Shown here in pieces: positions 2,866 to 49,291 of a stretch of 64,000 nucleotides of DNA. A model generated the notes under the pieces. That model ran no database searches. It saw only the letters and a list, made by a program, of their open reading frames with translations, and was not told where the DNA came from. The position numbers were made by a program, and so were the translations under genes. The stretch's first letter is position 1; the number at the start of each line of letters is the position of its first letter. The stretch is from Promethearchaeia archaeon (lineage in GTDB: Archaea; Asgardarchaeota; Lokiarchaeia; Sigyniarchaeales; SOKP01), in the NCBI GenBank assembly GCA_029856155.1, contig JAHQWL010000052.1, positions 107,130-171,129 of the forward strand. Reading direction: 5' to 3'.

Positions 2866-3630
2866 TTAATTTTTATTTACAATTTGTTTTACCTTTTCCA
2901 TTATTGGAGGAAGAACATCCTCAATTAAATTATCAAATCTAATATCTGCTACATCATCATAGGGTGTATCACCCTTATTTAAAAGGATTAATTTAGCACC
3001 ATATTCTTTCGCATAGCCCGGCATATTTGCTGCGGGTGTAACTACTAATGATGATCCAATAACAAAAAATACATCGGAATTTTGAGAGCGTTGTATAGAT
3101 TCTTCAAGTTCATCATAGGGTAATGGATCACCGAAATTTACAATACTTGAAATTATTCTTCCCTCACAGAAAGGACATGTTGGCTGACCTTCTCGAACTG
3201 GATGTGTTCTATATCCTGAACCCCATATATTTTTGTCCCAACCCGCTTCTTCGAATAACATTTTTTTATTACATGATAAACATTTCATGAAATATAAATT
3301 TCCGTGAAGTTCACTAAGCATATCAAAGGGAATTCCAGATTTAGCATGTAATCCATCTACGTTTTGGGAAATTAAATAGTTTAACTTTTCCATTTCCATC
3401 AACTCCACAATTGCGTAATGATTAGGATTAGGTTTCACTTGATCCCAAGGAGGGCTCTTTGGAGGAGAAAGTCCTTTATCCCGTCTAGTCCAAACGCCAT
3501 CTGGGCCTCTATAATCAGGTAATCCGCTCCCAGTAGAAATTCCCGCACCAGTAAAAATTACTAATCGTTCTGATTCAGCTATCCATTTAGCAGCTAAATC
3601 AATTTTTTCTTCAAAATCCATAAAAAACAT
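2866..3630 (-). CDS. Sir2-family NAD-dependent deacylase, class IV (SIRT6/7)-like
   Basis: [29 protein letters not shown], ELHGN, two CxxC, [10 protein letters not shown]. Confidence 0.9.
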   Translation of the reverse strand: [254 protein letters not shown]

Positions 3631-13430: not shown

Positions 13431-14468
13431 ATGGGTTTAAAAACAAACATAACTGAAATGCTTGGAATTAAGCATCCAATTATAGCGGCGCCTATGGGCC
13501 CGTTTTACACTAAAGAATTAACTGTTGCGGTTTCTGAAGCAGGAGGTTTAGGTGTTTTAAGTCATACTAATCTATTCGGGAAAAATAGCTTAGAAGAAAT
13601 GAAAAAGGATATGGAATTTGTAATCGAGCATACTGATAAATCATTTGGTTTTAATGTAAGAACATCAAGAATACAGTTAGATGCTCCAGGGCTCTGTCGT
13701 GGGATTTCAAGATTTATTATGGATAATCCGAAATTAAAAGAACAATGTATTTACGCAGTAACAAGTGCAGGGTCAGCTAAACAATTACCAAAAACAAAAT
13801 CATTTCAAAGATTAAGAGAAAGTGGTTCTAATATTAAGCATTTTCACGTTGCTCCCGCATTATGGCTAGCTGGAAAGTGTATTGACGCGGGAGTTGATGG
13901 GGTTGTATTGACAGGATACGAAGGTGGAGGTCATCAATCTTACGAAAAAATTAGCACATTAGTACTCCTTCAACAAGTCAAGCGAAAATATCCAGATCTA
14001 CCTTTTATAGCATGTGGAGGATTTGCAAGTGGAGAAGGTTTAGCTTCTGCATTAACAATGGGAGCAGGAGCAATTGCTATGGGTTCAAGATTTATCGCCT
14101 CAAAAGAGAGTGAATTTCATGAAAGTTATAAAAATGTTGTGCCATCTGCGAAATCAAGTGATACAATATATGTAACAGGAGTACTAGGTCCAATACGACT
14201 TTGGAAAAATAATTATTCTTTACATCATGGAGTTGTTTCAAGTAAGGAAGAAAAGTTAGCAATGGAAGCACAAATAACTCCCGCAATGGCATTAGAAGAT
14301 CAGAAATTTTATGAAATAACTTATGACGGTAATATTAATGATGGAGCAGTTCTTTTAGGTCAAAGTATAGGTATGATTAATTCGATAGAAACAGTTCAAG
14401 ATATTATTGATGATATCGTTAAAGGTGCGGAAAAAAGGTTAAAAGAAGCTAATTCATATATAATTTAA
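13431..14468 (+). CDS. Nitronate monooxygenase/FabK-like flavoprotein
   Basis: HPIIAAPM, VSEAGGLG, GYEGGGH, IACGG and MGSRF motifs. Confidence 0.85.
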   Translation: MGLKTNITEMLGIKHPIIAAPMGPFYTKELTVAVSEAGGLGVLSHTNLFGKNSLEEMKKDMEFVIEHTDKSFGFNVRTSRIQLDAPGLCRGISRFIMDNPKLKEQCIYAVTSAGSAKQLPKTKSFQRLRESGSNIKHFHVAPALWLAGKCIDAGVDGVVLTGYEGGGHQSYEKISTLVLLQQVKRKYPDLPFIACGGFASGEGLASALTMGAGAIAMGSRFIASKESEFHESYKNVVPSAKSSDTIYVTGVLGPIRLWKNNYSLHHGVVSSKEEKLAMEAQITPAMALEDQKFYEITYDGNINDGAVLLGQSIGMINSIETVQDIIDDIVKGAEKRLKEANSYII

Positions 14469-39884: not shown

Positions 39885-40700
39885 TTAGACGGGAATATCC
39901 CGTTTGTTGAAGATTATTATTGAAACTAGTGCTAATATAATAGTATAAGATGAGAGAAACACTATTTTTATAGGCAGTGCATCCCAATTACTATTTACAA
40001 GGAGATTTGACATGTCAGAATAGTAAAAAATACTGATATATTTAATACTTTCCATGCTCTCGCCAAAACTCTGCCAGAATTGGCCAACTGCATAGAAAAA
40101 GATAATTAAACCTAAACTTAAAACAAGAGATTTCTTAGTATCCATGAATGTCGAGAAGAAAAATCCAGTGGTAACAATTCCTAAATTCAATAAGATCATT
40201 ACAAGAAAAGCTGTCAAAAATTCTGCCCATGGAACTTCATTGGGAACAATATTTGGCATAATAAAAATACCCAGAATTACTGCCAACATTACTCCGAACA
40301 GGACTATCACGGCACCAATAATATGATATAAATATTTCCCAAGCGAAAATTCCCATCGTTTAATAGGTTTAGACAATATTAGATCGATTGTTTTATTATC
40401 AATCTCTCTTGGAATGTCTTGGGAAGCCTTTAGTATAAAATAAATTCCAAAAAAGAATAAAGACATCGAAAAAAGATATATATTCAATAGACCTCCAATT
40501 GTGCTTAAAGAATAAAATTCACCTATCATTTGCCTTATTGCTTCAGGATAAGATTCTAATAAAGCTTCGAAGTCTGCAAAAAATACAGGATCAAAAATTG
40601 AAACAAACCACATGTAAAATAGTCCCATTAATGCTGTATAGAGGATAATACCTTTCTTACTTGACGTAATTTCTTTCTGCATAATTTTAACCGCTTTCAT
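39885..40700 (-). CDS. ABC-2 type exporter permease
   Basis: 6 TM; EIDNKTIDLILSKPIKR; C-terminal FNKRDI. Confidence 0.9.
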   Translation of the reverse strand: MKAVKIMQKEITSSKKGIILYTALMGLFYMWFVSIFDPVFFADFEALLESYPEAIRQMIGEFYSLSTIGGLLNIYLFSMSLFFFGIYFILKASQDIPREIDNKTIDLILSKPIKRWEFSLGKYLYHIIGAVIVLFGVMLAVILGIFIMPNIVPNEVPWAEFLTAFLVMILLNLGIVTTGFFFSTFMDTKKSLVLSLGLIIFFYAVGQFWQSFGESMESIKYISIFYYSDMSNLLVNSNWDALPIKIVFLSSYTIILALVSIIIFNKRDIPV

Positions 40701-41653
40701 GCAGCTTCACCTCCTTCTGTAGTATTATCTTTGTAATATTGCATAAAAATATTCTCTAAAGTGGAATGTGTAATTGAAATATCTCTTATAGGGGCTCCAT
40801 CCCAGTCTTTCTCACTAATTTCACGTAAAATTTTTCGAGTCTGTTCTGGAGGGACTAGAAATTGAAGCTCGACATTGTAGGATTGTTTCACAATAGCTTC
40901 TGGAACCTCAGATGCTAAAAAGTTCGTAAATACTTCTAAACCTTTCGGTGTTTCAAAGATTAATTCAATATTTTTCAAATTCTTTGCTTTAAGATCTCTA
41001 ACATCTGAAATTTCCGCAATTTTTCCTTTTTTAATAATTGCCACTCTATCACAGAATTTTTCTATTTCTGGAAGAACATGAGAGCATACAAAGACAGTAC
41101 AATTTGATTCTTTCTGACGTTCAGATACAATTCGATAAAATTCACTCTGATTTAATGGGTCAAGTCCAGAAGTTGGCTCATCCATAATTAATAAATCGAA
41201 CTTACCCATTAAAGCTACTAAAACTCCTGTTTTTTGTTTATTTCCTTTACTTAGAATGCCCATCTTTCGCTCCATTTCGATCTTAAGGCGGTCAGCGACC
41301 TCATCTACAAATCTCCAATCAATTTCGATTTTGTAAAGCTTTGCAAAATACCTAATTAATTGAGTAGCACTCATCTCCTTGTAAATTCCAAGCTCCCCAG
41401 GTAAATAACCAATTCGATTTCGTATTTCTACATCCTTTTTGGGATTAATTTTCTGTCCAAGAATAGTTATATCACCTGCATCAACATTTAAAAACCCAAG
41501 TAAACACCGAATGGTCGTAGTTTTTCCTGCCCCATTTGGTCCAAGAAAACCAAATCGAGAACCTTCTGGAACTTCAAAAGAAATACCATCAACTGCTTTG
41601 ACTTTTCCCTTGTTATAATATTTTTTTAGATTTTTTACTTCGATCGCGTTCAT
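40697..41653 (-). CDS. ABC exporter ATP-binding subunit (start likely ATG 41653, MNAIEV)
   Basis: GPNGAGKTT, LSKGNKQK, DEPTSGLDP, SH. Confidence 0.92.
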   Translation of the reverse strand: MNAIEVKNLKKYYNKGKVKAVDGISFEVPEGSRFGFLGPNGAGKTTTIRCLLGFLNVDAGDITILGQKINPKKDVEIRNRIGYLPGELGIYKEMSATQLIRYFAKLYKIEIDWRFVDEVADRLKIEMERKMGILSKGNKQKTGVLVALMGKFDLLIMDEPTSGLDPLNQSEFYRIVSERQKESNCTVFVCSHVLPEIEKFCDRVAIIKKGKIAEISDVRDLKAKNLKNIELIFETPKGLEVFTNFLASEVPEAIVKQSYNVELQFLVPPEQTRKILREISEKDWDGAPIRDISITHSTLENIFMQYYKDNTTEGGEAA

Positions 41654-41737
41654 ATTTATCAACTTATAGAGTTTTTTATTTTTCATGAATAATAAAAAAC
41701 CTAATAGAATAATATGAATCTGAATATATAAATGTTC

Positions 41738-41759
41738 TTCATTTTTCATGAAAGATGAA
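41738..41759. promoter_or_regulatory. Two overlapping TTCA-N7-TGAA operator candidates
   Basis: TTCAtttttcaTGAA (41738-41752) and TTCAtgaaagaTGAA (41745-41759) in a divergent intergenic region. Confidence 0.65.
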
Positions 41760-41799
41760 AAATTATAAATAGTTGTTTACACATTAATAATATTAAGTA

Positions 41800-42324
41800 A
41801 TGATAGATAAGGAACTTTTGCCTAGAAATCATATATTCAAGGGAAAGATAAAAGAATTTGAGCAAATATTAATTAAATTTGTATTAGATTCTGGAAGAGC
41901 AAAAAGTGTTGACCCTAATCTTCAATTAATTCTTGGATATATTGGATTACACAAAAAGTTGACTCAGAAACAGTTAAAAGATTTAACAAAACTTTCTAGG
42001 GGTACGATTTCAAAAAAATTGAGGGATATATTGTCATTACGTATCATAAGAAAAGAAAGAATTCCAAAATCAAATGAATATTTGTATATAAATGCTCCTG
42101 AAGTCTACGGAGATACCGCTGATGCGACCCTAGAAGAATTCATAGAAATTAATGAATTTCTTAAAAAAAAAATTATTGAGATTGAGGAAAATAAGGAAAA
42201 AAAAGGAGCGAAGTTTCTTTCCGAACGAATAAAAAGCTTAACAGAGACTTTTGAAACTGTTAAGAATATCTGGTCAGATATAGAATTTATATTTAAACAA
42301 AAAAATAAAGAAACTTTACAATGA
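41800..42324 (+). CDS. GbsR/MarR-type winged-helix regulator, unit A
   Basis: LTQKQLKDLTKLSRGTISKKL wHTH plus C-terminal helical hairpin. Confidence 0.8.
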   Translation: MIDKELLPRNHIFKGKIKEFEQILIKFVLDSGRAKSVDPNLQLILGYIGLHKKLTQKQLKDLTKLSRGTISKKLRDILSLRIIRKERIPKSNEYLYINAPEVYGDTADATLEEFIEINEFLKKKIIEIEENKEKKGAKFLSERIKSLTETFETVKNIWSDIEFIFKQKNKETLQ

Positions 42325-42851
42325 ATATACAAGAAAGATTTGATCCTGAAATTAAAAAGATTGAGAATGAGATAATTAAAAAATTATTAAATTATACTGT
42401 TTTTTCTGTTCGGGGTGAAATAACTTCAAAAATACTTTTCTATTTTATAACTCGAAAAGATTTAACTCAATCTGAACTCCAAAACTTAACAGGTTTTTCT
42501 ACAGGAAAAATTTCTCAAGAACTTAATAATTTTCTGGAGTTTGATTTAATAAAAATTTCTAAAAAATCAAAACCGTGGATTTATTCAATGGAATCAGTAG
42601 TAGCAGAAACTTTTAGTAGAGCAATTAACCTTCTAAAATCAAATATCAAATGGGAGGCAAAATTCTTTGAAATGAAGAAGGATTTGGAAGATAACAGAGA
42701 AAATCTTCAAAATTTAAATGGATATACTGAAGTAAAAGACTTTATTGAGGTAAATCTCATGAGATTTAAAGGATTTAAGGTTGTTATTAAACTTTGGGAA
42801 GAACTTAAAAATAAATATGAAAAAGAGGATAAAAAATTAAATCTAATTTAA
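42321..42851 (+). CDS. GbsR/MarR-type winged-helix regulator, unit B
   Basis: LTQSELQNLTGFSTGKISQEL; ATGA overlap with unit A. Confidence 0.8.
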   Translation: MNIQERFDPEIKKIENEIIKKLLNYTVFSVRGEITSKILFYFITRKDLTQSELQNLTGFSTGKISQELNNFLEFDLIKISKKSKPWIYSMESVVAETFSRAINLLKSNIKWEAKFFEMKKDLEDNRENLQNLNGYTEVKDFIEVNLMRFKGFKVVIKLWEELKNKYEKEDKKLNLI

Positions 42852-42917
42852 GCTTATAATGACTTATTTTCTCCTCACTTTAAAAAAAAAGATAAAAAAA
42901 ATTGGGTGAATGAAGAA

Positions 42918-44342
42918 TTAATTATTAGATATTGCTTTCATTAAGATTTGATTTGCCCTTTCTTTGATTTTCAGAATTTTTTCGGATGAGATTGATTCTT
43001 CCATGTGATTTAAAGTTATGCTTGCAGTTTCCCCATGTGTGACTACACCTAAGACTAACTCGGTGTAGGGAGAACACGAAGGCATCAAAATCAGATTCTT
43101 TAAGATTAAATCTCCATATTTTTCTGGAAACCCCGTTTTACCAAGATTAGTCATAATTTGGGCCATTGCGAATCCCTTCGAAAGTTTTTTCTTGACCATT
43201 TTATTTACTATATTCTTTTTGTCCGAGATAAATGCTTGAATTTTATCATAGCTTTTTGAAGTTGGCGGTATGAGGGGACCAAAAGCAGCAAAAATTTGAG
43301 CTTCCAATAACGTTGGGTTTAATGCAAAGGCATTTAGAGTGCCTACTAATGTTTTTTTTGTAAGTTCATTTGGTCCTACTTTTAAGTGAACTTTTTTAGC
43401 TATCTCCCAGAAATTATTTTTATCAGAATATTTGAATTTTAGTTCTATTCCACCTGCGAAAAAACCAAATTGTTCACCTGCAGGATTCTTGAGAAGATCT
43501 CTTAAATTCACAGCAAATGAAATATTCTGTAAATATTTTGGAGATTCAGAATTTAATTGATTTTGAGCTGTAGCAAAGGCAATCATTAATGCTGTGTTCA
43601 CGGTTACCCCATTTTTACGACAAGCCATGATCAATGCATCTGTTTGTCCTTTGGAAAGTTCGTATAAGTGTGCTTTATAGGTATAATTCTTCCAAAAAAC
43701 ATCGTGTAGAGCATAGAAATCATCATAGTTAAAAAGCAATTCATTTTTTTCCCATTTCTTATTGATTGTCTTGCCAAAGATTCGCATTACTAAACTAGGT
43801 TTAATATCAGAAGGTATATTATCTTCGTTAACCAATGGAGCGGGGGACAGTAATTCAATCTTTTTCGTCGGATCTGCTAAATATGTCATTATATCTCTTG
43901 CTAAGTATGCCAAGGACATACCATCACAGATCGTGTGTTGACAAAAGATAATTAAATCTGAAATTTCAGTTGAATGTAATAATAAGAACCTAATTAAGGG
44001 ACCTTGCTCCATATCAAAGGGTATTTTATGTTGTTGAATTATTTCATCCCTCCATTGGTCATCGGAAATACGCTTAATTGTTTTTAAGGGAATTTCCAAA
44101 CTACCATTTGCTAAAAGATATAGTGCTTTACCATCGTGTTGTAAGTATGCATTGAGTATAGGATGCCGTTGTTGCATTTTTTTTATGACCTTTTTCATTT
44201 CATCAATGGAAACATTTCCTAAAATGGTTGCTATCATAGATATGTTTGAATTTGGTACTTTTGAGTGTATTCGTTCTCTTTGATTCAATTTTCTTTTAAA
44301 ATATTGATTATTTAATTCTATTTGTTCTAAAATTTTCAACAC
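42918..44342 (-). CDS. Condensation-domain/alcohol acetyltransferase-like (PapA5/CAT-fold) acyltransferase
   Basis: RHPIL, GPLIRF, QHTICDGMS (HxxxD), CRKNGVTV, AVNLR, TNLG. Confidence 0.8.
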   Translation of the reverse strand: MLKILEQIELNNQYFKRKLNQRERIHSKVPNSNISMIATILGNVSIDEMKKVIKKMQQRHPILNAYLQHDGKALYLLANGSLEIPLKTIKRISDDQWRDEIIQQHKIPFDMEQGPLIRFLLLHSTEISDLIIFCQHTICDGMSLAYLARDIMTYLADPTKKIELLSPAPLVNEDNIPSDIKPSLVMRIFGKTINKKWEKNELLFNYDDFYALHDVFWKNYTYKAHLYELSKGQTDALIMACRKNGVTVNTALMIAFATAQNQLNSESPKYLQNISFAVNLRDLLKNPAGEQFGFFAGGIELKFKYSDKNNFWEIAKKVHLKVGPNELTKKTLVGTLNAFALNPTLLEAQIFAAFGPLIPPTSKSYDKIQAFISDKKNIVNKMVKKKLSKGFAMAQIMTNLGKTGFPEKYGDLILKNLILMPSCSPYTELVLGVVTHGETASITLNHMEESISSEKILKIKERANQILMKAISNN

Positions 44343-44351
44343 CTTTAAATC

Positions 44352-44461
44352 TTCAAATCATGTGAATTTTCATATTTATTGAAGGTTTCAATAATTGATA
44401 GAAAAATAACATATTTAAATGTTTTCAATCTTTATGAAGTTTCATAAAACTTAAATATTCA
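44352..44461. promoter_or_regulatory. Array of TTCA-N7-TGAA operator candidates around divergent promoters
   Basis: Perfect sites at 44352-44366, 44369-44383 and 44424-44438; 1-mismatch site at 44441-44455; extra TTCA half-sites at 44387 and 44458 (17-18 bp phasing). Confidence 0.7.
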
Positions 44462-44484
44462 AATGATCTTAATATGTTTAAGCA

Positions 44485-45591
44485 ATGTCTAAAAAATACG
44501 AGGATTTTATATATCCCGAAGAAGTTAGGAAATATGAAAAAGATTTACTTGATTTTATAGTAGAATCTGGTAAAAATAAAAGAAGATCTGATATAGAATC
44601 CCACATTTTGGGATATTTCCTGCTACATTCAAGTCTTACACAAAAAGAGATTCAGATATTATCAACAAAATTTCGATCAAGGCGTATATCAAGCGGTTCA
44701 ATATCAACTTTTTTAAACCAATATACTTCATATGAACCAAGGATAATTCTTAAACAGAAGGTACTTAAAAGTAAAAATAAGTTCAGATATCATATTGTTT
44801 CAGAGAATTATAAAGAATTATTTGCTGTAAGTAAAGAGGCGGGAGTAAATGTTTTATATGAAACAATTGGAAAAATAAAAGAAATAATAAGAGCTTTAGA
44901 AAAATTAAACCCTAATGAAAAGGAAATTAAGCTTTATAATATGATATTAGAAAGAACAAGAGAACTGCAAAGTTATCTTAAATATCACTTATCCTTATTT
45001 GATAATTTTATGGAAAGTGTGATAGGACAAAAGTATCCTATAAAAAAAGATATAAAAATCCAAAAAGCGGATCCAAAAGTTAAAGCTGTTAAGAATCGAA
45101 ATTTAAAAGCGATTGAACAAGAGCTAATTAATTTAATTTTAAATAATGAGCTTTTTATTATTGAAGAGATAAAATATCATCCAATTATAGCATACTTAAT
45201 AACTCGTAAAAGTTTAACTCAATTAGAGTTAAATAAATTGACTGAACTATCAGCTGGTCTAATTTCTGAAGGACTAAATTATTTAAAAGAGCAAGGTTTT
45301 ATTGAAATTGAAAAATTACCGGGGTTACGTCAAAAAAGCTATGTTTTAGAATCCATTGGTTATTTTAATTTTCTCAAATTTTATCAAAGATTTAAAAATA
45401 TAGCAAACAATAGGTATAGATTGGCTCAAATTTTAGATGAATTAAAAAATAGAAAGGATGAATTAGGAGAAATAAATGGTTATAATGTGATTAAAACCCG
45501 AGCGGAAGAGTTCTTAGAGCAATTCAAAGTAATAGATTTTGGAATTAAAATCTTTCAGAAGGCTTTAGAAGATTTCAAAAAAGTTAATTAA
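44485..45591 (+). CDS. Fused tandem (A+B) GbsR/MarR-type regulator
   Basis: Two wHTH units: SLTQKEI...ISSGSISTFL and SLTQLELNKLTELSAGLISEGL. Confidence 0.8.
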   Translation: MSKKYEDFIYPEEVRKYEKDLLDFIVESGKNKRRSDIESHILGYFLLHSSLTQKEIQILSTKFRSRRISSGSISTFLNQYTSYEPRIILKQKVLKSKNKFRYHIVSENYKELFAVSKEAGVNVLYETIGKIKEIIRALEKLNPNEKEIKLYNMILERTRELQSYLKYHLSLFDNFMESVIGQKYPIKKDIKIQKADPKVKAVKNRNLKAIEQELINLILNNELFIIEEIKYHPIIAYLITRKSLTQLELNKLTELSAGLISEGLNYLKEQGFIEIEKLPGLRQKSYVLESIGYFNFLKFYQRFKNIANNRYRLAQILDELKNRKDELGEINGYNVIKTRAEEFLEQFKVIDFGIKIFQKALEDFKKVN

Positions 45592-45642
45592 TAAAAAGAA
45601 CGAAAAAAAAATTATTAGTACTTAATCATAACATTGTAAGCT

Positions 45643-45837
45643 TTATTGTTGAGATTTGTTATTTCTATTTCCATAACAGACTGCATATTTGATAACTCCT
45701 GTTTGAGAATTAAAAATCCATTCAGTTTCACAATTAGTACAGATAAATTTACTACCCAATTTAGAAGTTAAATTTTGTTTACATATAGGACAGGATTTTC
45801 TTTTTAAAAATAAATTAATTCTTAAGCAAAATATCAT
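45643..45837 (-). CDS. Small Zn-ribbon protein (possibly eroded)
   Basis: CPIC...CTNC; start uncertain. Confidence 0.35.
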   Translation of the reverse strand: MIFCLRINLFLKRKSCPICKQNLTSKLGSKFICTNCETEWIFNSQTGVIKYAVCYGNRNNKSQQ

Positions 45838-45914
45838 TTTCAGTCAACACTTCAAAATTTTTTTTTAATGGAATCCTCGTTTCTCAACTTTAAAAAAAAT
45901 AAAAAAAAAAGATT

Positions 45915-46736
45915 TTATATTAGAATGTCTCTCTTATTGAAGATCAAAAGACTTGCTATAACTAAAGCAGCATTAATCGAACCTAATACGATAATATCAC
46001 GTGCAAAAAGCCCAACATCTCCATGAACCATATAATCTGTTGGATTGAAATAGTAAAAAACTGAAAAATATCTTATTCCTTGTATAGCCTCGTCCATATA
46101 TACATAGAACTCCCCAAGGAAGAACATTAAAAACAACACAAATATGCCCATTGCCATTGATTTTCTACCATTAAGGAAAATCGTAGAAAATAACTTGGCA
46201 AACATTGCCAATGCTCCAAGATAGAGTATAACTATTATGTATGTTAACCATAGACGATCAAAGAAAAGACCTTCATTCCGGAATACTGAAGAAGAAGCCA
46301 TCCCACCCATAGTGATGAGAAAAAACATGCCCAAGGCAGCTGCAATGAATAAATAAAGGAAAGTTATTTTGCTGCCTAAAAAATTAAATCGTGTTACTGG
46401 TTTGGAAAGGGAAAGATCAATTGTTTTTTCCTCAACTTCTCGAGTTAATAAATTGCTTGCCATATAAACAATATAAATACCAGCATAGAGCCACATGAAG
46501 GAGAGAAGTTCTAAGGTCCAAAAACCATAAGGATTGGTAAATGCTTCCACATCCCCGAAAAATTCGATCATCCCTTCTGGCCACAATGAGATGATATCCT
46601 CTATGGCTGAAAGATCCATACCTTCTATCATATACACAATAAAATAACTTAGTAATCCAATTACTCCCCCTAAGATTAGAAGAATATATTTTTTATCTAA
46701 TAGGGATTCTTTTAGTGAAATAAAAAATCGATTCAT
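45915..46736 (-). CDS. ABC-2 type exporter permease
   Basis: EVEEKTIDLSLSKPVTR, FNKRDI; paralog of 39885-40700. Confidence 0.9.
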   Translation of the reverse strand: MNRFFISLKESLLDKKYILLILGGVIGLLSYFIVYMIEGMDLSAIEDIISLWPEGMIEFFGDVEAFTNPYGFWTLELLSFMWLYAGIYIVYMASNLLTREVEEKTIDLSLSKPVTRFNFLGSKITFLYLFIAAALGMFFLITMGGMASSSVFRNEGLFFDRLWLTYIIVILYLGALAMFAKLFSTIFLNGRKSMAMGIFVLFLMFFLGEFYVYMDEAIQGIRYFSVFYYFNPTDYMVHGDVGLFARDIIVLGSINAALVIASLLIFNKRDILI

Positions 46737-47702
46737 TTAAACTTCTACCTCCAATTTCTTTTTTGTATTTTCCATTGATTTCATTTGTATTGAAGATTTT
46801 TCATAGTATTTTAGAAAGATATCCTCAAGTGCAGGACTTGTAACATCAATATCTCTTACTTCAGATTGTGAAAGTAAATTTAGTATTTTGGATAATTCTT
46901 CACGTGAAATCATAAATGATGTTTTAGTTTCATTTAAAATAACAGAATCAACTATTCCAGTAGGAATCTTTTTTGAAAATTGTTGGAGAGCTTCTTTAGT
47001 TTTAAATTCAACTTTAATTTCTTTCATAGCCATATTTTTCAGTTGTTGAATAGTTGCAACTTCTACAATTGAACCATCTCTTATGATACCAACTCGATGT
47101 GCAACCCGTTCAACTTCCCCTAGTAAATGTGAACTTAAAAGAACTGTAGAACCCGTTTCTTTTTGTTGATCATGAAGTATATTATAAAACTCAGCGGTAA
47201 TTAAAGGATCTAATCCAGATGTAGGTTCATCAAGAATTAGTAGCTCAACCTCAGGCGCTAAAGCGAGTATTATACCAATTTTCTGTTTATTACCCTTACT
47301 AAGTTCCTTTACTTTTCGATCAAGTTCCAGATTGAAAATTTCAGCTAATTCCTCAATTCGTCTCAAAGAGATATGATTTTCATAGAGCCCTAAAAGATAT
47401 TTGAGATTTCGTCGTGCTGTTTTATTTTGATATAAGCCTAATTCTCCAGGCAGATAAGCTGTACGCTGACGAATTTTAGTAGAATGATGGTGTATATCAA
47501 GATTGAAAATTTGTGCTCTGCCAGATGTTTTATAAATTAAATCAAGAAGAAGTCTACAAGTTGTTGTTTTTCCCGCTCCATTAGGACCAAGAAGACCAAA
47601 TATTTCCTCGTTATATATTTCAAGATTTAGATTTTCAATACCTCGTGATTTGCCGTAAAATTTTGTTAAATTTTGCGTTTGAATAATAGTTTCTTTAGAC
47701 AT
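46737..47702 (-). CDS. ABC exporter ATP-binding subunit
   Basis: GPNGAGKTT, LSKGNKQK, DEPTSGLDP, SSH. Confidence 0.92.
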   Translation of the reverse strand: MSKETIIQTQNLTKFYGKSRGIENLNLEIYNEEIFGLLGPNGAGKTTTCRLLLDLIYKTSGRAQIFNLDIHHHSTKIRQRTAYLPGELGLYQNKTARRNLKYLLGLYENHISLRRIEELAEIFNLELDRKVKELSKGNKQKIGIILALAPEVELLILDEPTSGLDPLITAEFYNILHDQQKETGSTVLLSSHLLGEVERVAHRVGIIRDGSIVEVATIQQLKNMAMKEIKVEFKTKEALQQFSKKIPTGIVDSVILNETKTSFMISREELSKILNLLSQSEVRDIDVTSPALEDIFLKYYEKSSIQMKSMENTKKKLEVEV

Positions 47703-47921
47703 TTATTTTCTACTCCGTAAATTTTACTTTTTTAATTTAGACTTACAGATTTTTTTTCTATTTATGCTTTAATTAGACATACCTAAAGTTTAATTTTATG
47801 TATTCACTTTTTTCAAATTTTAGGAATGCTAATATTTGTAGAAAAAACAAACTATTTAAATGTTTCATAAATTTCAAAATTTATTTTTAATATTTGGAAT
47901 TTTAAAAAAAAATTAAAGGAA

Positions 47922-48038
47922 CTAAAATTTATTGAAAATATCAAAACGAGAATAATGTCCAATTATATCCAATTTTTGGCACTCCTGGATTGTTAATAAT
48001 AGATCTATGTCGGTATAAAGTATCCCTTCCTCATCTAT
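47922..48038 (-). pseudogene. Remnant of a nitrilase gene (C-terminus only)
   Basis: Manual translation IDEEGILYTDIDLLLTIQECQKLDIIGHYSRFDIFNKF*, matching the nitrilase C-terminal EGILYADIDL...D..GHYSRPD signature; in-frame TAA immediately upstream and no start. Confidence 0.7.
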
Positions 48039-48065
48039 TTACCATATAATATCGCTTTTGGAGAT

Positions 48066-48080
48066 TTCATATACTTTGAA
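48066..48080. promoter_or_regulatory. TTCA-N7-TGAA operator candidate
   Basis: TTCAtatacttTGAA just upstream of GAAAAG-TTTAAAT (BRE/TATA-like) of the regulator at 48218. Confidence 0.6.
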
Positions 48081-48217
48081 ACTTGGAAAAGTTTAAATTA
48101 TTGAGATTCTATATAATAATTAAGGATATAATATCTGAAAATAGTGTAATAGACCTTGTACTATTAATCTTTATCAATGAGATCTTAAAATTATATAAAT
48201 AAAACAAAGAACATAAT

Positions 48218-49291
48218 ATGATTCGATCAATGACAGGAGAAGAGGAACCAAGTCATCTTTTCGATAAAAAATTACGAGAATATGAAGACAAACTAGTGGA
48301 AATTCTATTAGAACTTGGACAAAGTAAGAGAACTAATCCTAAAATGTCAGCAATTGCCTGTTATTTGCTTATTCATGGGATACTAACTCAAAAAGAATTA
48401 AAAGAATTAACAGGATTTTCAATGGGTACTATATCGACTTATCTATCAGTCATGCTTGGTACAGGAAACTTTCAAAAAATACGTATTCCTCATACACATG
48501 CATTTATGTATTCTTTTTCTGGTGAACTTGAAGCACTTACTACAAGAGCGGTTGAGTTCGCATTGAGTAGCTTAAGTTCATTAGAGATTTATTTAAAAAA
48601 CAAAAAGAAAATTTTAACTAAATTAATTGAGAAGTCTATGAATGGTGCTAAACACCTTTCAGAAAGAATAGAAGAATTAATTGAAAGCTTTGAGAAATAT
48701 AAAAAAATTTTTCCTTCTGATGGAGATTCAACTGAAGAAATTCAACACCAAACACCTACAAAACCTGTAAAACGACCTAAAAATGAAAAAGAAGAAGCAA
48801 CAGAAATTATATTTCATCCTGAAGTTTATTTAGTTGAAGATGATATCATAAATCAACTTATATCTTTACCAATGTTCTCTATGCGTGATCCTATGTTTAT
48901 TAGAATTTTCGGGTATTTCATGACAAGGAAGTATCTTACCCAAAATACATTAAAAGGAATTACAGGTTTATCATCTGGGAAAATTTCTGAAGAAGTAAAT
49001 CAACTTTTAGAGAATGAACTTATCTATATAGCTAGTACTTCAGAAAAAGGAAAAATAACTTATGGTGCTGATTCATTTATATTACTTAGATTTACAAGAA
49101 ATATAATCATTAGAATGAGAAAAAAGGTAAAAGACTTAGAAAATATGAAATTACTGTTAAAAAAGAATAAGTCTGATTTGGAATTTTTAGAGGGTTTTTC
49201 TCAGATTTATAAAATCTATGACTACACTTTAAGTGCAATATCAAAGTATAGTAAATATTTTGAGAAAATAGATAAATTGATTGAATCGTAA
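48218..49291 (+). CDS. Fused tandem (A+B) GbsR/MarR-type regulator
   Basis: LTQKELKELTGFSMGTISTYL and LTQNTLKGITGLSSGKISEEV, separated by a low-complexity linker. Confidence 0.8.
   Translation: MIRSMTGEEEPSHLFDKKLREYEDKLVEILLELGQSKRTNPKMSAIACYLLIHGILTQKELKELTGFSMGTISTYLSVMLGTGNFQKIRIPHTHAFMYSFSGELEALTTRAVEFALSSLSSLEIYLKNKKKILTKLIEKSMNGAKHLSERIEELIESFEKYKKIFPSDGDSTEEIQHQTPTKPVKRPKNEKEEATEIIFHPEVYLVEDDIINQLISLPMFSMRDPMFIRIFGYFMTRKYLTQNTLKGITGLSSGKISEEVNQLLENELIYIASTSEKGKITYGADSFILLRFTRNIIIRMRKKVKDLENMKLLLKKNKSDLEFLEGFSQIYKIYDYTLSAISKYSKYFEKIDKLIES

What the first reader, a model, noticed from the sequence alone, without database searches (positions are those of the whole stretch)
39885..49291. 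Regulon of split/fused two-domain GbsR-type regulators facing exporter and acyltransferase genes
Seen: the layout target(-) <- divergent promoter -> regulator(+) repeats three times. The targets are ABC exporter 1, an HxxxD acyltransferase, and ABC exporter 2 plus a nitrilase remnant. The first regulator is two ATGA-overlapping genes (A 41800, B 42321). These align one-to-one with the N- and C-halves of the single-chain proteins at 44485 and 48218 (A HIFKGKIKEFEQILI vs HLFDKKLREYEDKLV; B FDPEIKKIENEII vs FHPEVYLVEDDII). Known: GbsR/MarR-type regulators usually act as homodimers. Inference: an obligate A/B heterodimeric (or fused pseudo-dimeric) transcription-factor family controlling an acylate-and-export module, for lipid/metabolite production or detoxification, in an Asgard archaeon.
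Basis: partly seen in the sequence, partly recalled or inferred. Interest (0 to 1): 0.8.

Follow-up and report, generated by a model that had tools for sequence, protein, structure and literature searches.

The report
Split and fused two-headed Asgard regulators
An Asgard archaeon carries three local gene switches of one family whose two unlike DNA-binding halves are made either as one chain or as two coupled genes. All appear to use the same TTCA-N7-TGAA site between back-to-back promoters of exporter and acyltransferase genes; this is a new format of an ordinary regulator type.

Summary
A (41800-42324) and B (42321-42851, ATGA overlap) match the N- and C-halves of the fused proteins at 48218-49291 (37%, E 2e-25; 36%, E 3e-22) and, more weakly, 44485-45591.

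- **Fold:** each half is a winged-helix plus helical dimerisation unit, closest to MJ223 (PDB 1KU9), the GbsR-family template.
- **Family:** it is small (369 representatives among 1.84 billion proteins), and every named member is Asgard. Forms are fused A-B (77), A-only (39), B-only (35), one with two A-type halves, never B-A.
- **Tree:** A and B domains separate on one branch (SH-aLRT 91). Fused and split states switch at least 6-7 times within each clade.
- **Pairing:** a model supports A+B binding (0.67 against best control 0.29).
- **Operator:** TTCA-N7-TGAA occurs 51 times in 35 regulator-upstream zones (7.3/kb against 0.10/kb) and never at spacings 5, 6, 8 or 9. It lies between divergent TATA boxes. 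Other first-reader notes on this same stretch had proposed it; I tested it.

Most likely these are ligand-released local repressors. The "acylate-and-export" pathway is not supported, because the cassettes come and go independently between genomes. F2 keeps its place without exporter 2 in most relatives. The nitrilase relic is real. This is a new variant of a known kind, of moderate interest.

The parts
39885..40700 (-). ABC-2 family permease of exporter 1
   Evidence: Pfam ABC2_membrane_2, E 1.5e-14. Orthologues are 53-93% identical in the 15 related loci that hold an A/B pair.
40697..41662 (-). DrrA-like ABC ATPase of exporter 1. The ORF is open to 41749, but the likely start is near 41662.
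   Evidence: Pfam ABC_tran, E 1.1e-24. NCBIfam drrA subfamily, E 2e-54, below its cut-off. Orthologues are 318-321 aa.
41675..41696 (.). Weaker second operator-like palindrome near the ATPase-1 start
   Evidence: It is one of four 3-mismatch matches to the 22-bp palindrome in the genome, and the only one in the same intergenic region. It is conserved in type-1 loci and forms a full TTCA-N7-TGAA in L030.
41725..41732 (-). TATA-like box (TATATAAA), proposed promoter of exporter 1
   Evidence: Read from the sequence. Conserved in all 15 loci. The promoter role is inferred.
41738..41759 (.). 22-bp palindromic operator made of two overlapping TTCA-N7-TGAA sites, lying between the two TATA boxes
   Evidence: The exact palindrome occurs once in the 4.1-Mb genome, and the reversed control gives 0.
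41763..41770 (+). TATA-like box (TTATAAAT), about 30 nt before the A start codon
   Evidence: The promoter role is inferred.
41800..42324 (+). Regulator subunit A (174 aa), an A-type GbsR/MJ223-like domain
42321..42851 (+). Regulator subunit B (176 aa), a B-type domain coupled to A by an ATGA overlap
42918..44342 (-). PapA5/condensation-type acyltransferase with an HTICDG motif
   Evidence: Pfam Condensation at 53.3 bits and PapA_C at 31 bits, both above their cut-offs.
44352..44383 (.). Two TTCA-N7-TGAA sites 17 bp apart, between the acyltransferase start and its proposed TATA box
   Evidence: Both are conserved in L017 and L019 with different spacer letters.
44412..44459 (.). TATA (44412-44419), operator (44424-44438) and TATA-like box (44450-44459), the core of the acyltransferase/F1 divergent promoter
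44485..45591 (+). Fused A-B regulator F1 (368 aa)
   Evidence: Orthologues are 80% identical in L017 and L019.
45915..46736 (-). ABC-2 permease of exporter 2
46737..47702 (-). DrrA-like ABC ATPase of exporter 2
47853..47878 (.). TATA-like box followed by a decayed operator (TTCATAAATTTCAAA, two mismatches) on the exporter-2 side
   Evidence: The same position holds a full site in L022, L017, L032 and L033.
47925..48038 (-). 38-codon relic of the C-terminus of a carbon-nitrogen hydrolase (nitrilase superfamily) gene
   Evidence: 78% identity to a 300-aa ORF in G334; that ORF is CN_hydrolase, E 2.4e-38.
48066..48098 (.). F2 operator TTCATATACTTTGAA, followed by GGAAAA and a TATA-like box (48092-48098)
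   Evidence: (unique in the genome).
48218..49291 (+). Fused A-B regulator F2 (357 aa), the most conserved member

Best explanation
The four genes A, B, F1 and F2 encode three transcription factors of one Asgard-restricted branch of the GbsR/MJ223-like MarR superfamily. The working unit is an asymmetric pair of two diverged paralogous domains. The A-type domain always comes first and the B-type second.

Each domain is a winged helix-turn-helix with an N-terminal helix and long C-terminal helices, and these helices interlock with those of the partner. The pair is made either as one chain with a disordered linker of about 25 aa (F1, F2), or as two translationally coupled genes (A, B).

Both heads keep the same LTQ...S-x-G-x-I-S recognition motif. 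The pair is therefore inferred to read a symmetric operator, yTTCA-N7-TGAAr, with half-sites 11 bp apart.

The main operator lies between two back-to-back TATA boxes. It touches the BRE side of the target promoter and sits just upstream of the regulator's own BRE/TATA. Extra sites lie between the target's TATA box and its start codon.

Inferred mechanism: the bound factor blocks TBP/TFB or RNA polymerase at both promoters, giving autoregulation plus repression of the divergent exporter or acyltransferase. An unknown small molecule releases it. That molecule is perhaps hydrophobic and binds the single asymmetric A/B interface.

The cassettes are independent units in a variable island between the IMPDH and radical-SAM genes.
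For: **Shown**
- Split/fused correspondence.
- AF2 model of F2: pLDDT 85, pTM 0.78, two wHTH-plus-helix halves, linker 169-191 disordered.
- Whole-half structural matches: 1KU9 (Z 9.1-9.3, 149-150 of 151 residues), 4NB5 (Z 9.6-9.9) and 5JBR (Z 9.3).
- 1KU9 is the top PDB sequence hit of both the A and the B profile (E 0.006 and 0.008, whole domain).
- Full-length ESM Atlas matches are Asgard only. Half-length matches are clusters named GbsR/MarR.
- Architecture census of the best representatives: 77 A-B, 39 A-only, 35 B-only, 1 A-A, 0 B-A.
- A and B domains separate on one branch (SH-aLRT 91; 78 rows). Fused/split changes: 7 within A and 6 within B. On the 212-row FastTree tree, 104 of 109 A domains form a clade with no B.
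- The F2 orthologue itself is split in G004 and G012, and high-scoring split pairs occur in G269 and G069.
- In all 16 A/B pairs aligned from the window and related loci, A lies directly upstream of B; in those whose junction I read it is a short gap or an overlap.
- Complex model of A+B: ipSAE 0.67 against best control 0.29. That mark was reached by 58 of 80 solved complexes and 2 of 110 mismatched pairs. Runs agree in at least 86% of contacts, and partner pLDDT is at least 81. Because MarR-type homodimers are solved, the pass may partly reflect likeness to them.
- Operator: 51 TTCA-N7-TGAA sites in 35 upstream zones and none at spacings 5, 6, 8 or 9. Density is 7.3/kb against 0.10/kb. There are 46 distinct versions with free spacers and fixed half-sites.
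- Six of the window's nine sites fall in the three intergenic regions.
- Only four site clusters exist in the 4.1-Mb genome, and two are here.

**Inferred:** repression, ligand release, and control of the divergent gene.
Against: - There is no expression or binding data.
- Sequence links to GbsR/MarR models are marginal. MarR_2 scores 25.9 bits against a cut-off of 27, and 1KU9 scores E about 0.007.
- Structural Z of 9-10 is only modestly above the background of 7-8.
- A site just upstream of BRE/TATA can also activate in archaea, so the sign of regulation is open.
- The related loci are kin, so the site counts are not independent.
- Homodimers A2 or B2 were not modelled, so 'obligate' is not shown.
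- In this window the operator on the exporter-2 side has decayed, and F2 lacks exporter 2 in most relatives. F2's target beyond itself is therefore uncertain.
- All paralogues share the same half-sites, so specificity versus cross-talk is unresolved.
Confidence: 0.7

Rival explanations
1. The architecture and operator are the same, but the factors are activators. Bound just upstream of BRE/TATA, they would recruit TFB/TBP to one or both divergent promoters when a ligand is present.
For: The proximal operator ends about 4-11 nt upstream of the regulator-side TATA box. By general knowledge of archaeal regulators such as Ptr2, activators use this position.
Against: - The same site abuts the BRE side of the opposite promoter.
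- Further sites lie between the TATA box and the start codon of the acyltransferase (44352-44383) and near the ATPase-1 start. These are roadblock positions, typical of repression.
- MarR/GbsR relatives are mostly repressors (PMC6207618).
Confidence: 0.18
2. A and B are simply two co-transcribed paralogous regulators. Each would work as an ordinary homodimer (A2 and B2), and the fused proteins would be an unrelated curiosity.
For: - Both have complete wHTH and dimerisation helices.
- MarR/GbsR proteins are normally homodimers (PMC6207618).
- Homodimers were not modelled here.
Against: - The A-then-B order is fixed in fused and split forms, with 0 B-A.
- A-only and B-only numbers are about equal (39 against 35).
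- A and B are always adjacent and tightly coupled.
- Fused and split states interconvert repeatedly, including within F2 orthologues.
- The A+B model passes its controls.
- Each promoter has only one kind of operator.
Confidence: 0.08
3. The split pair is an assembly error or a decayed, frameshifted fused gene, and is not functional.
For: The window comes from a draft genome of 104 contigs with 5.7% contamination.
Against: - Intact A and B ORFs with their own start codons occur in at least 16 genomes, at 73-83% identity for close orthologues.
- The junction lacks the linker of the fused forms.
- Many A-only and B-only representatives exist in independent datasets.
Confidence: 0.02

Closest known systems
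MJ223 of Methanocaldococcus jannaschii (PDB 1KU9) and the GbsR family (GbsR, OpuAR, OpcR; COG1510) within the MarR superfamily
   Same: - Size is the same, about 150-180 aa per domain.
- The layout is the same: an N-terminal wHTH and a C-terminal helical dimerisation region.
- The S-x-G-x-(I/V)-S recognition-helix motif is shared.
- 1KU9 is the best PDB sequence hit for both halves, and a structural match that covers a whole half.
- JGI names family members GbsR.
- These are local regulators next to transporter genes.
   Different: - Known members are homodimers of one gene product (PMC6207618). Here the unit is two diverged paralogous domains, fused or split.
- The sequence link is marginal (E about 0.007).
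- The neighbours are ABC-2 exporters and an acyltransferase, not Opu importers or betaine synthesis genes.
- The aromatic cage for choline was not examined.
SarS, SarU and SarY of Staphylococcus aureus, two-domain members of the SarA/MarR-like family (SarS is PDB 1P4X)
   Same: A single chain carries two tandem MarR-like winged-helix domains that mimic a dimer. PMC3616918 notes that SarU, SAUSA300_1114 and SAUSA300_2247 each have two MgrA-like domains.
   Different: - No detectable sequence relationship was found.
- The structural match of the whole model to 1P4X is poor (TM 0.21-0.29, rmsd about 20 A).
- The Sar proteins are bacterial global virulence regulators.
- I know of no split two-gene version, and no repeated fusion or fission, for the Sar proteins (own knowledge).
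PDB 4NB5 and 5JBR
   Same: These are the best structural matches to one half, including the long C-terminal helices. 4NB5 gives Z 9.6-9.9 with 143-144 residues aligned, and 5JBR gives Z 9.3. From memory, 4NB5 is M. tuberculosis Rv0678 (MmpR5), a lipid-binding repressor of an efflux pump; I did not check this here.
   Different: They share 12-14% identity. Both are homodimeric bacterial proteins, and no sequence-level hit was found.

Membership tests
GbsR family / COG1510 (MarR superfamily) | One-domain fold of the MJ223 template: an N-terminal winged helix-turn-helix joined to C-terminal dimerisation helices | tested here: met
   - The AF2 model has pLDDT 85.
- 1KU9 aligns over 149-150 of its 151 residues to the N-half, with Z 9.1-9.3 and rmsd 3.5-3.9.
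- Half-length ESM Atlas neighbours are named GbsR/MarR, with TM by target 0.61-0.74.
GbsR family / COG1510 (MarR superfamily) | Significant sequence similarity to family members | tested here: inconclusive
   - 1KU9 is the top PDB hit of both the A and the B profile, but only at E 0.006 and 0.008.
- NCBIfam gives no family hit.
- JGI's own annotation names several members GbsR.
GbsR family / COG1510 (MarR superfamily) | Homodimer of one polypeptide | tested here: not met
   - Every member is either a fused A-B chain or one of an adjacent A plus B gene pair.
- A and B are separate clades.
- The A+B model passes its controls.
- Homodimers were not modelled.
GbsR family / COG1510 (MarR superfamily) | Aromatic-cage inducer site for choline or glycine betaine, and linkage to osmoprotectant genes (the GbsR/OpuAR subgroup) | not tested
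   The cage was not examined. The neighbours are ABC-2 exporters and an acyltransferase, not Opu or Gbs genes. PMC6207618 states that archaeal GbsR-type genes show no consistent neighbourhood.
MarR family (Pfam PF12802 MarR_2 / PF01047) | Score above the Pfam gathering threshold | tested here: inconclusive
   The window's proteins score 12-25.9 bits against a cut-off of 27. Many orthologues carry precomputed PF12802 or PF24034 hits.
Two-domain SarA-family proteins (SarS/SarU/SarY) | Homology to SarA-type domains | tested here: inconclusive
   No sequence hit was found. 1P4X matches only weakly. Only the tandem format is shared.
Condensation / PapA5-type acyltransferases (gene 42918-44342) | Condensation-domain fold signature with an HxxxDG catalytic motif | tested here: met
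   Pfam Condensation scores 53.3 bits (cut-off 30.6) and PapA_C scores 31 bits (cut-off 30). The HTICDG motif is present. The NCBIfam PapA5 models score far below their cut-offs, so the protein is not a PapA5 equivalog.
ABC-2 type exporters (DrrAB-like) | ABC_tran ATPase next to an ABC-2 membrane permease, with no substrate-binding protein | tested here: met
   Pfam hits are above their cut-offs for both pairs. The drrA subfamily model is the best NCBIfam hit but falls below its cut-off. No binding-protein gene is adjacent.

The most novel reading that the evidence does not exclude
This would be an obligately asymmetric (A/B) MarR-superfamily transcription factor, restricted to Asgard archaea, that still reads a symmetric operator. 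It has switched many times between a two-gene heterodimer and a single-chain pseudo-dimer. The asymmetry would create one unique ligand or partner site per dimer. If so, it is a natural series for studying how homodimeric regulators become pseudo-symmetric single chains, and the first defined operator-regulator pair for Loki-type Asgard archaea.
Probability: 0.45. Interest if true: 0.6.

Novelty: new variant of a known kind. Interest (0 to 1): 0.5.

Why it matters
Gene regulation in Asgard archaea is almost unstudied. I found no paper on this family in the library.

This finding gives a concrete and cheaply testable pair: a small regulator family, and a sharply defined operator (TTCA-N7-TGAA) placed between two archaeal TATA boxes.

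The family also documents repeated interconversion between a heterodimer encoded by two coupled genes and a single-chain pseudo-dimer. That bears on how symmetric dimers evolve asymmetry.

Practically, it corrects annotation. The ATPase-1 start is wrong, the two halves of a split regulator should be named as a pair, and a hydrolase relic should be marked.

It does not reveal a new pathway or a eukaryote-like feature.

Tried and rejected
- **RPC62/RPC34 and TFIIE-type multi-winged-helix proteins.** Foldseek ranked RNA polymerase III subunit chains first, but with rmsd 13-27 A and TM 0.13-0.26. The Pfam TFIIE_alpha hit of B is below threshold at 21.5 against 22.9 bits. I rejected this as generic winged-helix likeness.
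- **Global regulon.** The 22-bp palindrome and the F2 operator with its flank are each unique in the genome. TTCA-N7-TGAA is not enriched genome-wide: 207 sites, similar to other spacings.
- **Acylate-and-export pathway.** I rejected this as a unit because the cassettes assort independently.
- **Careful IQ-TREE run.** It returned no answer. It was replaced by a quick LG+G4 tree of 78 rows, with nine long-branch proteins and a random remainder left out.
- **Pfam on the 38-aa relic.** This gave nothing. The relic was identified through a full-length relative instead.
- **Whole-model search of PDB.** No solved single chain aligned well across both halves. This does not show that none exists.

Full report
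**Anatomy**

The stretch holds these genes, in order:
- ABC-2 permease (39885-40700, -) and ABC ATPase (40697-41749 as an open frame, -).
- Regulator genes A (41800-42324, +) and B (42321-42851, +).
- A condensation/PapA_C-type acyltransferase (42918-44342, -).
- Fused regulator F1 (44485-45591, +).
- A second ABC-2 permease and ATPase (45915-46736 and 46737-47702, -).
- Fused regulator F2 (48218-49291, +).

PurH and IMPDH lie upstream. A radical-SAM gene and gamma-glutamyltranspeptidase lie downstream. A's stop and B's start overlap as ATGA.

**The split/fused correspondence is real**

| Pair | Identity | E-value |
|---|---|---|
| A against F2 N-half | 37% | 2e-25 |
| B against F2 C-half | 36% | 3e-22 |
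| B against F1 C-half | 32% | 3e-14 |
| A against F1 N-half | weak | 1e-7 |
| A against B | 26% | 6e-4 |

So the two halves are old paralogues. The own genome holds only these four family genes.

**What the domains are**

Pfam and NCBIfam give only sub-threshold winged-helix hits.
- An AF2 model of F2 built on 57 homologues has pLDDT 85 and pTM 0.78. It shows two equivalent units, each with helix 1, a wHTH with wing, and two long helices. A disordered linker (169-191) joins them.
- The only solved chains that cover a whole half are 4NB5 (Z 9.6-9.9), 5JBR (Z 9.3) and 1KU9, which is MJ223 (Z 9.1-9.3; 149-150 of 151 residues; rmsd 3.5-3.9).
- Profiles of A-type and B-type proteins each find 1KU9 as their best PDB sequence hit over the whole domain. 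The E-values are marginal (0.006 and 0.008). The hits share the S-x-G-x-(I/V)-S recognition-helix motif.
- MJ223 is the published template for GbsR-type regulators, which are homodimers (PMC6207618).
- JGI labels several members GbsR.
- In the ESM Atlas, half-length neighbours are clusters named GbsR/MarR. The three full-length neighbours (TM 0.68-0.92) are all archaeal, with Promethearchaeota or Thorarchaeota the commonest phylum.

I therefore accept "GbsR/MJ223-like branch of the MarR superfamily" for the domain. The family's defining homodimeric state is not met.

**Family census and evolution**

A profile search of 1.84 billion representatives finds only 369 proteins at E no greater than 1e-3. 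The best 150, together with the window's own four proteins, have these architectures:

| Architecture | Count |
|---|---|
| Fused A-B | 77 |
| A-only | 39 |
| B-only | 35 |
| A-A | 1 |
| B-A | 0 |

Two further short fragments could not be classed.

- Every domain scores far higher on its own half-model than on the other.
- On an IQ-TREE tree of 78 domains, A and B fall on the two sides of one branch (SH-aLRT 91). Nine long-branch proteins were dropped and the rest were sampled at random. The fused/split state needs 7 changes within A and 6 within B.
- A FastTree of all 212 domains gives an A clade of 104 of 109 with no B inside. The five strays are long branches.
- The F2 orthologue itself is split into two genes in G004 and G012. 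High-scoring split pairs occur in G269 and G069.
- In all 16 A/B pairs aligned from the window and related loci, A lies directly upstream of B; in the junctions I read it is a short gap or an overlap.
- In an even draw of 301 genomes of the phylum, 73 have a match. The counts are 42 of 68 in the window's family, 5 of 7 in a sister family, and 14 of 76, 4 of 21 and 4 of 11 in three others. The family is patchy, not universal.

**Do A and B pair?**

The complex model supports binding but does not show it.
- The score is 0.67 against a best control of 0.29. That mark was reached by 58 of 80 solved complexes and 2 of 110 mismatched pairs.
- The three runs share at least 86% of contacts, and partner pLDDT is at least 81.
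- The interface is reciprocal. Helix 1 of each chain packs on the C-terminal helices of the other, as in MarR-type dimers.
- Such homodimers are solved, so part of the pass may be likeness to them.
- A2 and B2 were not modelled.

**The operator**

I aligned the intergenic regions of 15 loci and saw conserved TTTCA/TGAAA repeats between two TATA-like boxes. Other first-reader notes on this stretch phrase it as TTCA-N7-TGAA, and I tested that form.
- In 35 zones of 200 bp upstream of family regulators there are 51 sites. None occur at spacings 5, 6, 8 or 9.
- Density is 7.3 per kb inside the zones against 0.10 per kb in the rest of the 267 kb examined.
- The 46 distinct versions keep the half-sites, and a flanking y/r, while the seven spacer letters vary.
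- In the window, six of nine sites lie in the three intergenic regions: 41738, 41745, 44352, 44369, 44424 and 48066.
- Genome-wide the motif is not enriched (207 sites). Clusters of two or more exist at only four places, and two of them are here.
- The 22-bp palindrome at 41738-41759 is unique in 4.1 Mb. A weaker copy sits 63 bp away, near the ATPase start.
- The loci are related, so the counts are not independent. The strict spacing with free spacers argues for selection.

**Layout of the promoters**

The common layout runs TATA (target), operator, a short purine-rich stretch, TATA (regulator), then about 26-30 nt to the regulator's ATG.
- The acyltransferase/F1 region adds two sites 17 bp apart, between the acyltransferase TATA box and its start. 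Both are conserved in L017 and L019.
- A symmetric operator fits the fact that both heads keep the same recognition motif.

**Function**

I infer ligand-released local repression with autoregulation. The grounds are the site positions and what is known of the superfamily. Activation remains possible.

**Neighbourhood**

The order is syntenic in the genus, but the content is modular:
- ABC1 with A/B is in all 15 loci that hold an A/B pair.
- The acyltransferase is in 7 of the 20 related loci, F1 in 2 and ABC2 in 7.
- F2 is always beside the radical-SAM gene, and in most genomes without ABC2. There its operator sits on its own promoter.
- Other genomes carry TetR plus ICMT/PEMT-like methyltransferase cassettes, a C_GCAxxG_C_C protein, a 434-aa protein of no known family, or a CN_hydrolase in the same gap.
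- In the window, the hydrolase survives as a 38-codon relic at 47925-48038. The operator next to ABC2 has two mismatches.

This is a variable island of independent regulator-target cassettes, not one pathway.

A second A/B type is only 33-39% identical, yet it sits beside an ATPase that is 71-95% identical. It comes with different letters around the same half-sites.

**Comparison with the known**

- Tandem two-domain MarR-like proteins exist in Staphylococcus: SarS, SarU and SarY (PMC3616918).
- GbsR-type regulators are described as homodimers (PMC6207618).
- I found no description of a GbsR/MarR-type factor encoded as an A/B gene pair, or of this Asgard family.

**Verdict**

This is a new variant of a known kind. 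It is well supported as a DNA-binding family with a defined operator, and it is of moderate interest.

Noticed in passing
G000:C26:170713-170789 (outside the window): This is the only other intergenic cluster of TTCA-N7-TGAA in the genome. An F2-like operator, followed by ACA and TTTATATA, lies upstream of a small unannotated ORF of about 47 aa with two CxxC pairs (zinc-ribbon-like). It may be an extra target.
   Followed up: partly
window 45643-45837 (-): A 64-aa ORF lies between F1 and exporter 2. It has weak zinc-ribbon-type hits (Gin, Trm112p), both below threshold. Whether it is a real gene is unknown.
   Followed up: partly
window 41663-41749: The ATPase-1 ORF is extended by 29 codons because a CAT inside the operator palindrome reads as a start codon. 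Orthologues are 318-321 aa.
   Followed up: yes
L017-L019, L026, L034 (same-genus loci): The A/B pair beside exporter 1 comes in two types that are only 33-39% identical, while the adjacent ATPase stays 71-95% identical. The sequence flanking the shared half-sites changes with the regulator type. This suggests either regulator replacement or fast co-evolution with the operator.
   Followed up: partly
L021, L023, L024, L020, L018, L026, L038: In relatives, the gap between the A/B pair and F2 holds other cassettes:
- TetR-family regulators beside ICMT/PEMT-like membrane methyltransferases.
- A C_GCAxxG_C_C protein.
- A full CN_hydrolase.
- A conserved 434-aa protein with no Pfam hit.
   Followed up: partly
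P0195, P0199, P0209, P0222, P0224, P0227, P0228, P0245; L027:9357-10142: A subgroup of A-type subunits carries an N-terminal extension of about 85 aa, for a total of about 250-262 aa. One representative (P0166, 607 aa) has a 216-aa extension before a fused A-B unit. P0201 appears to have two A-type halves.
   Followed up: no
window 3283-3292 and 14115-14124: Two further exact TTTCATGAAA palindromes occur in the window. Three are found against 0.7 expected, and 4 of 100 shuffles do as well. Their context was not examined.
   Followed up: no
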